From a virus, in the IMG/VR virus record IMGVR_UViG_3300036715_000468: DNA of 64,000 nucleotides; one strand, given 5' to 3'. This document shows positions 23,000 through 28,109 of this stretch, in pieces. The notes beneath the pieces were generated by a model. It had not been told where the DNA came from, searched no databases, and saw nothing but the letters and a program-made list of their open reading frames with translations. A program made the position numbers and the translations under genes. Positions within the stretch are counted from its first letter, which is position 1. Each line of letters starts with the position of its first letter.

Positions 23000-25951
23000 T
23001 CACATGTTACTGAAATCAAATAATGTCTCTAAATGTGCATGTTCTTTATTTGTTCTACTAAGATCCCATTTAAGAACACCTAACAAGTTTTCTACCTTCT
23101 TATCTACGATACCTGCCATCATATCTTCACTATCGAACGGGAGACTCAAGAACCATTCCGGCAAATGTGTTTCATCGACGGGATAAGCAATACTTGATAA
23201 TCTATTTTCACTTGTTTCTTTTAATTTACAAATAATAATCTTTTGTCCATCGATGATACGCATAGCATGTTGATCCATATGAACTTCTTTTAACCTATTC
23301 CATGCAAGGCTGGCCGTTACGTGTCCAGGTACATGTAAATTACCTACATGAATCCCTTTCATCTTTTTGAACCCTGCATCTTCAAGTTTGTCTTTATAAT
23401 GAGTTAACTTATTAACTGAACGAGGTGTACCTTGTTGCCACGGTTTCATATCTTCAAATTTTTCTTTGAACAAACGAACCTTCTCTATCACAGCGTTCTC
23501 GCCCTTGTCTGTAAGAGTATCCATCAGTATGTCTGACAAGAATTTTTGCACGAATTTCGGTGTATCTGCGCGTTTTAAATCAAGACCCATAGCCTTTACT
23601 TTGCCTACTTTGCCAGCAACGTCAAGTCTAATACCATCCTTGTCATACATCAAACAAGCATAACGCTTCTTAACCATCCATATACCTGTCTCAGATACTG
23701 TTTCACGTGAACTAGCAATTACACCGGTCGAACGCTTAACTGGCACATGCAAACTAGATAATAAGAATTCGGGAAATGTTGCTGATACAGCTTTAGCTAA
23801 ATCATTATATAAATCCACAACACTTTCCTTTGTCCACAGGATATCGCCATTCTCGATTTCTTCTTTAAGACTAGGGTATGCCGAAAAATAACACGAGTCA
23901 GTATCGCCATATACTATTGACTTACCGTAATGATCATATTCGCCTGTGATCATTTCATTTGTTTTAGCAGCCATATGTTTAGTAATTGTTCTACCAGTTA
24001 AAGTAGTTGATTGCCCTAAGCGTTGATCGAAGAATCTGCTACCTGCATTCAATAACGCACCATATGCAGAGTTAAGGTTAATTTTCTTAACTAGTTGACG
24101 CTTGTCCCAGAAACTGATAATACGTGCTAAGACTGCTTGATCTCTATAAATTGCTTTACCATCCTTAACTGTTAAATTATGTTGGTTCATATATTGCACG
24201 ACACGCTTCTTATGACCCTCAGTAATAAGTTCTCGTAATTTTTTAGGCTTATATGATTCGGAATCTATATAAGGATTTGCCTTTATATCTGTATCACTAA
24301 TATCTTCTATACTAAACAAGTCGCTAGGTACTTTAACACCTGCCATTTTAGCATTATCCGATATATCCTCGTAATTAGTCATAATACCTTGCAACACTTT
24401 ACGTTCACTGTACCATCGTGTTAATAGACTAGGAATTACACCGTCAGCGTCAGTCTTAAAGATTGTCCCGTTTGCACTAATGCACCAAGGTTGACCTCCC
24501 TCAAAGATTAAGTCATGAAGTTCTTTGCCTGTTACTTCATACTCAGACCCGTCTTCCATATCGAGAATTAATTTGTTACCAATGTCCTCATTATAGAAAT
24601 CGTCCATTTCTAATACATGAAATCTATCATTCCACCACGATGCAAATGTATATCTGGCGCCTTTCGCTTCCCATGCTGCAATTGCTGTATTAGTGCGATC
24701 TAGTCTGATCTGTCCAACGATCATTTCTGGACTCATGTTCAACGTTCTAATAACAGACGGATACAAGGATTTCATATCTGTGCTACCAATCCATCTGTGG
24801 AATCCCTTCCTCGGTGTTGCTACCCATCCACCTGCTGCCCTTACGTCTTTTTCACTGCTAGTATGTTTCTTGTCAGGACAAATCATATTACGATTATGTG
24901 CTTCCATTAACACGTTTTGGTCTGTTACTGCAACCGCACCCATAACCTTAGGAATCAATACACAGCTAGAATGCGCAATCGAATTAGCTAAGTCGATAAA
25001 CTGTAATTTCTTATCAAGTTTATCTAACAAACGTGTATCTTGAAGGTTGTATTCTAAGAATTTCCTAAAATCATCGTTATACAATTCGTCGAGTGTTCCT
25101 TCGTATGCAATTTTTGTTTCGTCAAGTTCAATTTCTGCAATCGCATTTAACGCATAGCTATGTCGTTCTTCATAGTTGTATTGTTTGTAAATCTGCATAT
25201 AATCCATCGAAATTCGACCAATTAAATCATATGTCAACGCTTCGCGACCACCACGTTCATACTTACGTTCTTTCGGCGATTGATCCCATAGACAGAGTCT
25301 ACGAGCTTCGTGTTTACCTAATACTTTCTTTATACGATTTACTACATACGGAATATCATACGCTTCTGAATTCCATCCCGATAATACATCTGCATCAGAT
25401 ATTACATCGATAAACGCATTTAGCATTTCAACTTCGGTCTTAAACAGAACTACATTACCTACTTCATCTGCAATTGCCGATGCTTCTTCCCACGTTAATG
25501 TCTCGGGAGGAAATGCTAGACAGATAATTTCGTCAAGCCATTGTAAATGAACCGATATAGCAGTTATATAATTGTCTGCATCAGCAGCTTCGGACCAACC
25601 TTCTTCTTTATCAAAGCTAGTCTCAATATCGAAAAAGGCTACATTTAGCGCAGGTGCTTCGCCCGAATGATAATTATGTTCTAAGCAACGTCCTATGGGA
25701 TTAACATCGGATTCCCATTTCTTAACATTACCTGACATTGTCTTAACTAATTTTTGTTTTTCAGTAAATGACTGTGGGACAATCTTCTTGAGTGTATTTC
25801 CATAGATTGATTTATGTGATCCACGCGGATCACTAACATAGAAATGATAGTCGGGCGGATATTCTTTATAAACTCTTTTACCGTTTATACGTTCTACTAC
25901 CTTAATTACTTCTTCTTTGCCGTTCCTGTTAAAATAACTGTCGACATACAT
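23000..25951 (-). CDS. family-B DNA polymerase (T4 gp43-like)
   Basis: FDIETS (exo I), DMKSLYPSVI (pol motif A) and IVYGDTDSCYF (motif C, YGDTDS). Confidence 0.95.
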   Translation of the reverse strand: MYVDSYFNRNGKEEVIKVVERINGKRVYKEYPPDYHFYVSDPRGSHKSIYGNTLKKIVPQSFTEKQKLVKTMSGNVKKWESDVNPIGRCLEHNYHSGEAPALNVAFFDIETSFDKEEGWSEAADADNYITAISVHLQWLDEIICLAFPPETLTWEEASAIADEVGNVVLFKTEVEMLNAFIDVISDADVLSGWNSEAYDIPYVVNRIKKVLGKHEARRLCLWDQSPKERKYERGGREALTYDLIGRISMDYMQIYKQYNYEERHSYALNAIAEIELDETKIAYEGTLDELYNDDFRKFLEYNLQDTRLLDKLDKKLQFIDLANSIAHSSCVLIPKVMGAVAVTDQNVLMEAHNRNMICPDKKHTSSEKDVRAAGGWVATPRKGFHRWIGSTDMKSLYPSVIRTLNMSPEMIVGQIRLDRTNTAIAAWEAKGARYTFASWWNDRFHVLEMDDFYNEDIGNKLILDMEDGSEYEVTGKELHDLIFEGGQPWCISANGTIFKTDADGVIPSLLTRWYSERKVLQGIMTNYEDISDNAKMAGVKVPSDLFSIEDISDTDIKANPYIDSESYKPKKLRELITEGHKKRVVQYMNQHNLTVKDGKAIYRDQAVLARIISFWDKRQLVKKINLNSAYGALLNAGSRFFDQRLGQSTTLTGRTITKHMAAKTNEMITGEYDHYGKSIVYGDTDSCYFSAYPSLKEEIENGDILWTKESVVDLYNDLAKAVSATFPEFLLSSLHVPVKRSTGVIASSRETVSETGIWMVKKRYACLMYDKDGIRLDVAGKVGKVKAMGLDLKRADTPKFVQKFLSDILMDTLTDKGENAVIEKVRLFKEKFEDMKPWQQGTPRSVNKLTHYKDKLEDAGFKKMKGIHVGNLHVPGHVTASLAWNRLKEVHMDQHAMRIIDGQKIIICKLKETSENRLSSIAYPVDETHLPEWFLSLPFDSEDMMAGIVDKKVENLLGVLKWDLSRTNKEHAHLETLFDFSNM

Positions 25952-26202
25952 TAACCCAATCCCCCGGATTTATATAATTCTTCCAGTTCTTCCCAGTCTT
26001 CGCGCTGGTCATTCATCTTGCCTTTTTGACAGATCTTGATAAGTTTATTTAACTGTGCAGGTTTTACTTCTAATTCTTCTGCTATTGATTTAACTGTATC
26101 GCTTAGACCTGCCTTTAAGTCTTCCACTTCTTGTAGAACACTCACGCCATCTTTAATTAATTGTTTTAGTCGTGCGATGTTTTCGGGGCTTAATTTCGCC
26201 AT
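25951..26202 (-). CDS. hypothetical protein translationally coupled to the DNA polymerase
   Basis: 83 aa; 1-nt overlap with the polymerase start. Confidence 0.4.
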   Translation of the reverse strand: MAKLSPENIARLKQLIKDGVSVLQEVEDLKAGLSDTVKSIAEELEVKPAQLNKLIKICQKGKMNDQREDWEELEELYKSGGLG

Positions 26203-26287
26203 ATAACTCCTTGTAGTTGCTTTGTGTTTTACTTAGCGTTTAAGTTATTATAACTTCAGCTATTGCGAAAATCAAGAATTTCGGGGA

Positions 26288-27670
26288 TTAGAAACGGCCT
26301 GTAGCATTTCCGGGGGTACCGTTGTTAGTACCTTTGTATTGATGGTCATCGTAACCGTGTATGGGTGATAGCAAACCTTTTCTTTGTGTCTCATCGGCAA
26401 CTGCTTGGCCGAAACGATACATTTGGTCGGGCATTACTCTGTTAAGCCATTCTACTATAAGTGGTCTAATATCACGACCCGGGTCAGTTTCTTCTAACGA
26501 AGTAAATTGATCGTTTAATTCGTCATCATTGATAATTTCCGATATGTAAATAGGTGCTACGATAGCTGGAATCGGTTTTTCCATTAAACGCTTAACCATT
26601 TCGAAATCTTCGGGCGTGAGCGGAAGTTTATGAACTGCTTCGGATAATTTTTCACCGCGCTGCCTGGCTTTAGAAAGTTTACCTACTGCTTGTTTCATTC
26701 CACTCATACGCTTTTTAGCATGGGCACTCGAGCTTTCTTTGTCCACGCCTGCTTTTGCCTTAGCAATATGCCCCTCTGCATCTTTGCCCGATTTACCAAA
26801 ATAACTCTTTAGTGTGTTAACTGATAATTCGTCCAATTCTTCAACCTCGGATAGACGTTTAAGTTCGACTGCATTTATTGTGGAAGGTGTTCTTACCACA
26901 GGTTTATATATAGATGCCCTTGCTATATCACTCCTGTCTATTTCTCTCCGTATTGCTCTTAATGACGATGCTTCTATCTGTCTTATGCGTTCACGATGCA
27001 CTCCAAACACTTTTGCCACTTCTTCGAGTGTCATGCCGTCCATAAATCGCATTTTTATTACATCCTGGTGCCTCGGTAATAATACTTTCATGTATTTCGC
27101 TATTAACTTTTTAGCATCTATACTATCGGTATCAAGGTCGTAGCTATGTAATGGATCACTTGCTATAGATCTTAGTTGTTCTGCGTTGTCTGCAGGATCT
27201 GGGCGCAATGTAGGCATTTTCTCACCATTGTATGTATCGCTGTCCGGATTATATGTCGATGTTTGTCGATTAGGTCGCGCCTCGGTTACAGGAGTAACAG
27301 GGCGTTTTCCGTATCTATATCCGCCATACTTATTATCTAATCTGTCGACTGCTCTAGACGCTCTTGACAAACTAGAGTATGGTTTGCCTACAACTTTACC
27401 AGTCTGACGATCATATACTTCATATTGCTTGTCTTCCGTATTTTCAGCACTCTCAGCTACATTATTTTTCTTAATAATATCCTTAAGTGCGATATAGTCA
27501 GCTTTTAATTTAGACTTTAGGAAATCACGAGCAGTACCTGCAGCCATGCCACAAAGTTTATCAACATACAGATCCATCCGGACTTGTAAAGTGTCGATTT
27601 GCTTCATAGACTTTGTTGATAGACCTTTATCTATCATGGACTTCGGTAGCAGGAGTTCTAGTATTTTCAT
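26288..27670 (-). CDS. protein carrying a sigma-70 region-4 (-35 binding HTH) domain without a recognisable region 2
   Basis: LPRHQDVIKMRFMDGMTLEEVAKVFGVHRERIRQIEASSLRAIRREI is a near-canonical sigma region 4.2; the rest (460 aa) is unrelated and low-complexity. Confidence 0.65.
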   Translation of the reverse strand: MKILELLLPKSMIDKGLSTKSMKQIDTLQVRMDLYVDKLCGMAAGTARDFLKSKLKADYIALKDIIKKNNVAESAENTEDKQYEVYDRQTGKVVGKPYSSLSRASRAVDRLDNKYGGYRYGKRPVTPVTEARPNRQTSTYNPDSDTYNGEKMPTLRPDPADNAEQLRSIASDPLHSYDLDTDSIDAKKLIAKYMKVLLPRHQDVIKMRFMDGMTLEEVAKVFGVHRERIRQIEASSLRAIRREIDRSDIARASIYKPVVRTPSTINAVELKRLSEVEELDELSVNTLKSYFGKSGKDAEGHIAKAKAGVDKESSSAHAKKRMSGMKQAVGKLSKARQRGEKLSEAVHKLPLTPEDFEMVKRLMEKPIPAIVAPIYISEIINDDELNDQFTSLEETDPGRDIRPLIVEWLNRVMPDQMYRFGQAVADETQRKGLLSPIHGYDDHQYKGTNNGTPGNATGRF

Positions 27671-27676
27671 ATTATG

Positions 27677-27684
27677 TATTTATC
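27677..27684 (-). promoter_or_regulatory. GATAAATA element 6 nt upstream of the start of 26288..27670
   Basis: minus strand reads GATAAATA-cataat-ATG; no Shine-Dalgarno. Confidence 0.4.
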
Positions 27685-27707: not shown

Positions 27708-27732
27708 TAAAAGGGACCGAAGTCCCTTTTAA
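27708..27732 (-). terminator. rho-independent terminator hairpin
   Basis: gggaccgaagtccc stem flanked by A and T runs. Confidence 0.6.
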
Positions 27733-27743
27733 GTATATCTAAA

Positions 27744-28109
27744 TTAGATATCAAACTGTGCTGCCACAGAACGTGGAACCAAACTAATGTTTAGTTCTTG
27801 TGCTTTGCTAACAATAGCAGGCAATACAAACAATGCGCCAGGGATGGCAACGATGCCGGCGAATGTAGTTGCTTTAGCTAATTCTACAGCCTTTTTATTT
27901 GCACTAGTAATTTCGTTAATTGTTGCAGTACCAGTTGCAGCTTTCTGGTAAACCTTCATTACTTCTTGGCTATTTGCGTATTCTGTTTCGAATACTTTTT
28001 GGACTTTCTCCATTACTACTTTTACATCTTCTGGCGTCTTAGGGACGTTCGAATAGAATGCTGTAACTGAGTTTAAAAAGTCTTGTGGTGTTTTCATTGT
28101 GCTAAACAT
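27744..28109 (-). CDS. hypothetical C-terminally membrane-anchored protein
   Basis: 121 aa, hydrophobic segment near the C-terminus; an exact TATAAATA lies 67 nt upstream. Confidence 0.45.
   Translation of the reverse strand: MFSTMKTPQDFLNSVTAFYSNVPKTPEDVKVVMEKVQKVFETEYANSQEVMKVYQKAATGTATINEITSANKKAVELAKATTFAGIVAIPGALFVLPAIVSKAQELNISLVPRSVAAQFDI

What the first reader, a model, noticed from the sequence alone, without database searches (positions are those of the whole stretch)
26288..27670. Protein with a near-perfect sigma-70 region 4.2 but no region 2
Residues ~195-245 (MRFMDGMTLEEVAKVFGVHRERIRQIEASSLRAIRREI) match the -35-binding HTH of primary sigma factors almost residue for residue. 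The rest of the 460-aa protein has no sigma region 2 and is low-complexity and basic. A stand-alone region 4 could bind the beta-flap of host RNA polymerase and compete with sigma70, as a sigma-appropriation strategy. Alternatively it could bind -35-like DNA as a repressor or activator. It sits just downstream of the DNA polymerase and carries the leaderless GATAAATA arrangement.
Basis: partly seen in the sequence, partly recalled or inferred. Interest (0 to 1): 0.6.

Follow-up and report, generated by a model that had tools for sequence, protein, structure and literature searches.

The report
Swappable sigma domain-4 insert in phage protein
A giant T4-like phage carries a real copy of the sigma-factor domain that grips RNA polymerase and the -35 promoter box, but as an optional insert inside an uncharacterised, widely conserved phage protein rather than in a sigma factor, so it is probably an accessory way of interfering with host transcription.

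Summary
ORF 26288..27670 (minus strand, 460 aa) contains a genuine sigma-70 region 4 (Pfam 53.7 bits; 22 of 28 HTH residues identical to primary-sigma domain 4). No region 2 or 3 is found by any profile method.

The protein is not a stand-alone region 4. It belongs to an undescribed family of T4-superfamily jumbo phages. The conserved core is a ~110-aa acidic helical protein, always encoded just upstream of dsbA and DNA polymerase. Long forms carry an insertion hot spot after residue ~8, filled with exchangeable, mostly basic small domains.

Here one insert is sigma domain 4. A phage about 94% identical in DNA lacks exactly this 426-nt in-frame segment, and two other sister pairs show the same hot-spot polymorphism. 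The insert is therefore dispensable and exchangeable.

The gene follows a terminator and a T4-late-type GATAAATA motif 6 nt before the ATG, with no Shine-Dalgarno. Orthologs conserve this.

My best reading, which is inferred, is a late-expressed scaffold whose sigma-4 insert docks on the RNA polymerase beta-flap and/or -35 DNA and competes with host sigma-70. A split-sigma role at late promoters is disfavoured. Homology to gp33 was tested and not found.

The parts
26288..27670 (-). 460-aa ORF, a long-form member of a dsbA-linked phage protein family that carries a sigma-70 domain 4 insert
   Evidence: ORF list. 69 family homologs share the N- and C-modules.
27677..27684 (-). GATAAATA, a T4-late-promoter-like motif 6 nt upstream of the ATG with no Shine-Dalgarno (near-leaderless arrangement)
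   Evidence: [TG]ATAAATA occurs 19 times on the coding strand against 6 on the other, mostly in front of genes. The terminator-GATAAATA-4 to 6 nt-ATG arrangement is conserved in L001, L002 and L006.
27708..27731 (-). Intrinsic-terminator-like hairpin plus T-run ending the upstream gene, which makes this ORF the start of its own transcription unit
   Evidence: Terminator scan found a 10-bp stem. Equivalent hairpins occur in orthologous loci.
27455..27670 (-). aa 1-72: invariant N-terminal MKILELLLPK motif followed by a basic helical hairpin
   Evidence: AF2 helices 19-41 and 46-74 with pLDDT 85-93. Conserved columns. In minimal forms the MRIxEIL motif is fused directly to the C-module.
27293..27433 (-). 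aa 80-126: small basic beta-beta-alpha-beta domain (YEVYD...YGGYRY), an optional and movable module of the family
   Evidence: pLDDT 95-98. Present, absent or duplicated among members, and found in other architectures (P0070-76).
26844..27286 (-). Indel cassette (aa 129-276: PRE motif, acidic linker, sigma domain 4), replaced by 17 nt in an otherwise 93.6%-identical phage
   Evidence: blastn of the window against L001. Junction alignment. GC and GC3 equal to the rest of the gene.
27176..27259 (-). aa 138-165: conserved PRE motif (YNPDSDTYNGEKMPTLRPDPADNAE), function unknown
   Evidence: 57-78% identical in four of the six other r4-bearing lineages, 27-40% in P0003 and P0005. Occurs with or without r4, sometimes twice. 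No relatives outside the family.
26933..27136 (-). aa 179-246: sigma-70 family domain 4 (regions 4.1 and 4.2) with a primary-sigma-type recognition helix HRERIRQ at aa 225-231
   Evidence: Pfam PF04545 at 53.7 bits. hhalign 97% to real sigma factors. PDB sequence and fold matches to sigma-4 only.
26651..26920 (-). aa 251-340: Lys-rich, mostly helical, low-confidence linker (pI 9.9)
   Evidence: AF2 pLDDT 43-70. Composition. Shared with P0002 and P0044 only.
26396..26650 (-). aa 341-425: acidic helical C-module, the conserved core domain of the family
26291..26395 (-). aa 426-460: conserved but predicted-disordered C-terminal tail (SPIHGYD.H.Y.G...GNA.GR), a candidate binding epitope
   Evidence: Near-invariant S435, H438, G439, Y440, A456 and G458. 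pLDDT below 50.
26247..26275 (-). Sigma-70-type promoter-like site TTGATT-17-TATAAT in the gap between this ORF and dsbA
   Evidence: Promoter scan, 10 of 12 matches. On its own it is not above chance for the region.
25951..26202 (-). Downstream neighbour: 83-aa T4 DsbA-type dsDNA-binding protein, whose stop overlaps the DNA polymerase start
   Evidence: The same-length 83-aa gene at the syntenic position in L001 carries Pfam Phage_DsbA PF11126. phrog_639. 45% identical to the Phosso 'DNA binding protein'.
23000..25951 (-). Family B DNA polymerase (983 aa), the conserved third gene of the syntenic block
   Evidence: phrog_262 at E=5e-190. Closest to Phosso, Atu_ph07, Vibrio 2.275.O and Rak2-like jumbo phages at 38-43% aa identity.
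27744..28109 (-). Conserved upstream neighbour (121 aa, hydrophobic LPG..LP segment, unknown function)
   Evidence: Same-sized gene upstream in L001, L002, L006 and the P0010 contig. Homologous ORFs precede the minimal forms in L010 and L012.

Best explanation
The ORF is a late-expressed protein of an uncultured T4-superfamily jumbo phage. It is not a sigma factor. Shown: it belongs to an undescribed family whose conserved core is a ~110-aa acidic helical protein, made of an N-terminal MRIxEIL motif, the C-module and a conserved tail. This core is always encoded just upstream of the T4-type dsDNA-binding gene dsbA and the DNA polymerase. Shown: long forms have an insertion hot spot after about residue 8, which has accumulated a basic helical hairpin plus exchangeable, mostly basic small domains. 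Shown: in this phage one such insert is an authentic sigma-70 domain 4 (regions 4.1 and 4.2) with a primary-sigma -35-reading helix, and related phages gain, lose or swap it. Inferred: the acidic core is a protein-protein interaction module working with DsbA and the late transcription and replication machinery on DNA, while the inserts tether it to nucleic acid or to RNA polymerase. Inferred: the sigma-4 insert docks on the beta-flap tip of host RNA polymerase and/or on TTGACA-type -35 boxes. The protein is made from a late-type promoter, so it would compete with region 4 of host sigma-70. That would help move polymerase from sigma-70-type early and host promoters to the phage's -35-less late promoters. 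This is an accessory, dispensable boost to takeover, not an essential initiation factor. The confidence of 0.4 applies to the inferred mechanism. The shown parts (real sigma-4, no region 2, optional insert in a conserved dsbA-linked family) I hold at about 0.9.
For: The r4 domain is real and the other sigma regions are absent. The family architecture and hot spot are supported. There are 89 long forms with inserts of 42-428 aa, and 65 of 89 inserts have pI above 8. The core pI median is 4.4. There are 28 minimal forms of 84-136 aa. The insert is optional: the window and L001 are 93.6% identical over 15 kb except for a clean in-frame 426-nt indel. P0005 and P0032 are 98% identical in the N part and differ by an r4-containing insert. 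P0004 and P0057 are 84-89% identical with different middles. r4 is patchy on the N+C tree. Synteny (upstream ~121-aa gene, family gene, dsbA, polB) holds in 4 of 4 long-form contexts and for the distant minimal form P0252. For P0246 the two downstream genes carry no Pfam call, but their translations look like DsbA and the start of a family B polymerase. Late-type expression is supported by the terminator plus GATAAATA 4-6 nt before the ATG, conserved in orthologs. A potential DNA target exists, since complete sigma-70-type promoters are enriched in the window. Established knowledge: sigma domain 4 binds the beta-flap tip and the -35 element, and T4 gp33 occupies the same flap site to favour late transcription (PMC2988020).
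Against: No binding has been tested. A near-identical phage does without the insert, so any effect is non-essential and could be neutral. Among r4-bearing lineages the HTH is only 22-57% identical to the window, and the RERIRQ helix survives only in the window and P0004 lineages. That argues against a common -35 target. The 4.1-4.2 loop is four residues shorter than in primary sigma factors, and whether flap binding is retained is unknown. The role of the core domain is unknown: there is no fold or sequence match and no homology to gp33. The late character of the GATAAATA motif is inferred from T4, and no gp55 homolog was found in the window.
Confidence: 0.4

Rival explanations
1. The sigma-4 insert is only a sequence-specific DNA-binding helix-turn-helix. 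It would be one of several alternative basic DNA-tethering modules at the hot spot, anchoring the core protein to phage or host DNA, or repressing promoters by sitting on -35 boxes, with no contact to RNA polymerase.
For: Most hot-spot inserts are basic: 65 of 89 have pI above 8. The neighbour DsbA is a dsDNA-binding protein. Recognition-helix residues vary between lineages as expected for changing DNA specificity. Many small phage proteins consist of a sigma-4-type HTH alone and are annotated as regulators. TTGACA-type promoters are present in the genome.
Against: The domain keeps region 4.1 as well as 4.2, and its similarity to sigma factors extends about 15-25 residues upstream of 4.1 into the 3.2-4 linker. 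That extra stretch is unnecessary for simple DNA binding. TTGACA hexamers alone are not enriched (52 against 45 +/- 6.5).
Confidence: 0.27
2. The dsbA-linked acidic core protein is this phage clade's functional counterpart of T4 gp33, the late-transcription co-activator that sits on the beta-flap. The sigma-4 insert would then be either a remnant of its origin or a reinforcement of flap binding.
For: Minimal forms are 84-136 aa (several of 105-116 aa), acidic and helical, and lie directly next to dsbA. T4 gp33 is 112 aa and linked to dsbA. gp33 is described as a sigma-4 mimic, and gp55 plus gp33 as a split sigma (PMC2988020). No canonical gp33 was found in the window or related loci. Late-type promoter.
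Against: There is no sequence similarity. hhalign probability is 0.2-0.45% against T4 gp33 and against a 44-member gp33 profile. There are no Trans_coact PF16805 or phrog_254 hits for 45 C-module sequences. The gene order is reversed, with the family gene upstream of dsbA whereas gene 33 is downstream. The C-terminal tail does not resemble the polymerase C-terminus, so no shared clamp-binding motif is evident. Only 64 kb of a probably larger genome was searched for gp33.
Confidence: 0.15
3. Split sigma: the sigma-4 insert pairs with a gp55-like region-2 protein to form a two-part sigma that reads both a -35 box and the TATAAATA-type element.
For: Two-subunit sigma factors exist, such as SigO-RsoA in Bacillus subtilis. 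T4 gp55 plus gp33 is regarded as a split sigma.
Against: The 19 coding-strand [TG]ATAAATA sites have no conserved upstream element. The maximum column information is 0.58 bit, and TTGACA-like hexamers occur at 3 of 19 sites in inconsistent positions. The near-identical phage L001 lacks r4. Most family members lack r4.
Confidence: 0.04
4. The protein is packaged into the virion and injected with the DNA, like T4 Alt or the polyvalent proteins, so that the sigma-4 module acts on host RNA polymerase or promoters at the very start of infection.
For: Late-type promoter. Virion-type genes lie immediately upstream. Mosaic, domain-shuffled architectures are typical of injected polyvalent proteins (PMC7824862). 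The invariant N-terminal motif contains an I-L-E triplet. From my own recollection, this resembles T4 prohead-protease cleavage sites.
Against: There is no similarity to known internal or polyvalent proteins. The synteny is with dsbA and polB rather than with head genes, across distant relatives. The N-terminal motif also occurs in 110-aa minimal forms, where it abuts the core domain.
Confidence: 0.08
5. The insert is a selectively neutral passenger, meaning a domain captured at a recombination hot spot and now decaying with no function.
For: It is dispensable in close relatives. It evolves faster than the core.
Against: In this phage the domain scores 53.7 bits with an intact recognition helix and a confident fold, pLDDT 91-95. 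Homologous r4 inserts, mostly with the PRE motif, persist in at least five lineages that have diverged to 45-50% identity. Its composition is fully ameliorated.
Confidence: 0.08

Closest known systems
Domain 4 (regions 4.1 and 4.2) of primary sigma-70-family factors
   Same: Clear homology at sequence and fold level. The R-E-R-I-R-Q -35-recognition helix is identical, the K-M-R-F motif of region 4.1 is kept, and similarity extends a little into the 3.2-4 linker.
   Different: Regions 1.2, 2 and 3 are absent. The domain lies in the middle of a non-sigma protein. The 4.1-4.2 loop is four residues shorter. The positions corresponding to activator-contact residues K593, K597 and H600 of E. coli sigma-70 are changed.
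T4 gp33, late-transcription co-activator (Pfam Trans_coact PF16805)
   Same: [quoted passage not shown]
   Different: There is no detectable sequence or profile similarity. The gene lies on the other side of dsbA. No clamp-binding tail is recognisable. gp33 has no authentic sigma-4 and does not read DNA.
T4 AsiA/MotA sigma appropriation and other phage factors acting at the beta-flap/sigma-4 interface (Thermus phage gp39, Xp10 P7)
   Same: They share the proposed target, the sigma-4/beta-flap/-35 interface, and the same purpose of redirecting host polymerase (papers listed).
   Different: Those proteins bind or displace the host's sigma-4. This protein carries its own sigma-4 and would act as a competitor or mimic. 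It has no sequence similarity to any of them.
Small phage proteins consisting only of a Sigma70_r4-type HTH (phrog_36, phrog_1373; BFVD entries of 48-145 aa)
   Same: They have a sigma-4-type HTH without region 2 in a phage.
   Different: Those are single-domain proteins. Here the domain is an exchangeable insert in a 460-aa multi-module protein with a conserved non-HTH core, and it is closer to primary sigma factors than to ECF-type r4.
Two-subunit sigma factors (Bacillus subtilis SigO-RsoA; T4 gp55 plus gp33 viewed as a split sigma)
   Same: Sigma functions are divided between separate polypeptides.
   Different: No -35 element accompanies the late-type promoters here, and the sigma-4 part is dispensable.

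Membership tests
Sigma-70 family sigma factor | Region 2 (core binding and -10 recognition) | tested here: not met
   No PF04542 hit at E<=10. hhalign against real sigma factors aligns only aa 179-246. A PDB profile search finds sigma-4 only. No similarity to the region-2-only T4 gp55.
Sigma-70 family sigma factor | Region 4 (beta-flap binding and -35 recognition HTH) | tested here: met
   PF04545 at 53.7 bits against a 24.1 cut-off. 22 of 28 HTH residues are identical to primary sigma-4. Fold match to sigma-4 structures.
Sigma-70 family sigma factor | Directs promoter-specific initiation with core RNA polymerase | not testable with these tools
   This needs in vitro transcription. It is unlikely without region 2.
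T4 gp33 late co-activator (Pfam Trans_coact PF16805 / phrog_254) | Sequence membership in PF16805 / phrog_254 | tested here: not met
   T4 gp33 hits PF16805 (93.9 bits) and phrog_254. Nine minimal C-module proteins and 36 C-modules do not. Profile-profile probability is 0.45%.
T4 gp33 late co-activator (Pfam Trans_coact PF16805 / phrog_254) | Small (~100 aa) acidic protein genetically linked to dsbA | tested here: inconclusive
   Minimal forms are 84-136 aa with pI about 5, adjacent to dsbA. They lie upstream of dsbA, whereas gene 33 is downstream and translationally coupled.
T4 gp33 late co-activator (Pfam Trans_coact PF16805 / phrog_254) | Binds the beta-flap tip and the sliding clamp through a C-terminal epitope | not testable with these tools
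   No complex prediction or binding assay is available. The conserved C-terminal tail does not resemble the polymerase C-terminus.
Pfam DUF7339 (PF24028) / phrog_1415 | Score above the Pfam gathering threshold | tested here: not met
   17.6 bits against a 27 cut-off for the whole protein. Only 6 of 36 C-modules reach E<0.1.
New dsbA-linked 'MRIxEIL + C-module' phage family (defined here) | N-terminal MRIxEIL motif, acidic C-module, IHGYD...GNAYGR tail, position upstream of dsbA and polB | tested here: met
   All four features are present in the window protein. The family has 233 cluster representatives at E<=1e-3.
Anti-sigma / sigma-appropriation factors (AsiA type) | Homology to AsiA or other known anti-sigma families | tested here: not met
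   No such family appears among the Pfam, PHROG or NCBIfam hits.

The most novel reading that the evidence does not exclude
The dsbA-linked acidic core protein is the jumbo-phage counterpart of the T4 late co-activator gp33. The forms bearing an authentic sigma domain 4 would then be living intermediates, showing that flap-binding co-activators and true sigma-4 domains are interchangeable. That would amount to a natural, modular split sigma in which the sigma-4 half is swapped in and out between closely related phages.
Probability: 0.12. Interest if true: 0.85.

Novelty: new variant of a known kind. Interest (0 to 1): 0.55.

Why it matters
Phages are known to attack the sigma-4/beta-flap interface of host RNA polymerase with unrelated small proteins such as AsiA, gp33, gp39 and P7. 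Here a phage carries the authentic sigma-4 domain itself, detached from the rest of sigma and mounted as an exchangeable cassette on a conserved scaffold next to the late-transcription gene dsbA. If it binds the flap, it would be a natural sigma-4 decoy. Natural pairs of near-identical phages with and without the cassette would make its effect directly measurable. Separately, the work defines a sizeable uncharacterised protein family in T4-superfamily jumbo phages (233 cluster representatives). The family has an unusually clear insertion hot spot, a conserved near-leaderless late-type promoter arrangement and strict linkage to dsbA and DNA polymerase. It is a good candidate for a missing component of late transcription or replication-coupled regulation in these phages.

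Tried and rejected
1. Cryptic region 2 or 3. Pfam and NCBIfam at permissive E-values, hhalign against RpoD-like sigma factors, a PDB profile search and hhalign against T4 gp55 all found r4 only.
2. Homology of the C-module or the whole family to T4 gp33. A single sequence, a 44-member profile, Pfam PF16805 and phrog_254 were all negative.
4. Fold searches with the full model against BFVD and PDB returned only sigma-4 matches.
5. Close relatives among GenBank phages. There were none by DNA, and the only protein hit was to r4 in one fecal contig.
6. The proteins in the equivalent slot of Vibrio phage 2.275.O and Sinorhizobium phage Phosso are unrelated.
7. A recent donor for the cassette. The nearest outside relatives are primary-sigma C-termini at only 50-57% identity, and there is no compositional anomaly.
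8. A -35 element at the late-type promoters was not found.
9. gp55, gp33 and gp45 homologs were not detected in the window by phmmer, the gp33 HMM or PHROG scans of 20 ORFs. Only gp44 and RNase H homologs were found.
10. Fusion of the C-module to complete sigma factors in other architectures. Among 137 representatives only r4 ever co-occurs, and the large C-module proteins have no informative Pfam domains.
11. Simple deletion between direct repeats at the indel. CCGAGG occurs at both junctions in the window, but the L001 sequence is not the simple product, so this is not decisive.
12. Supplementary tables of the jumbo-phage review, sought for gp33 accessions, are not held.
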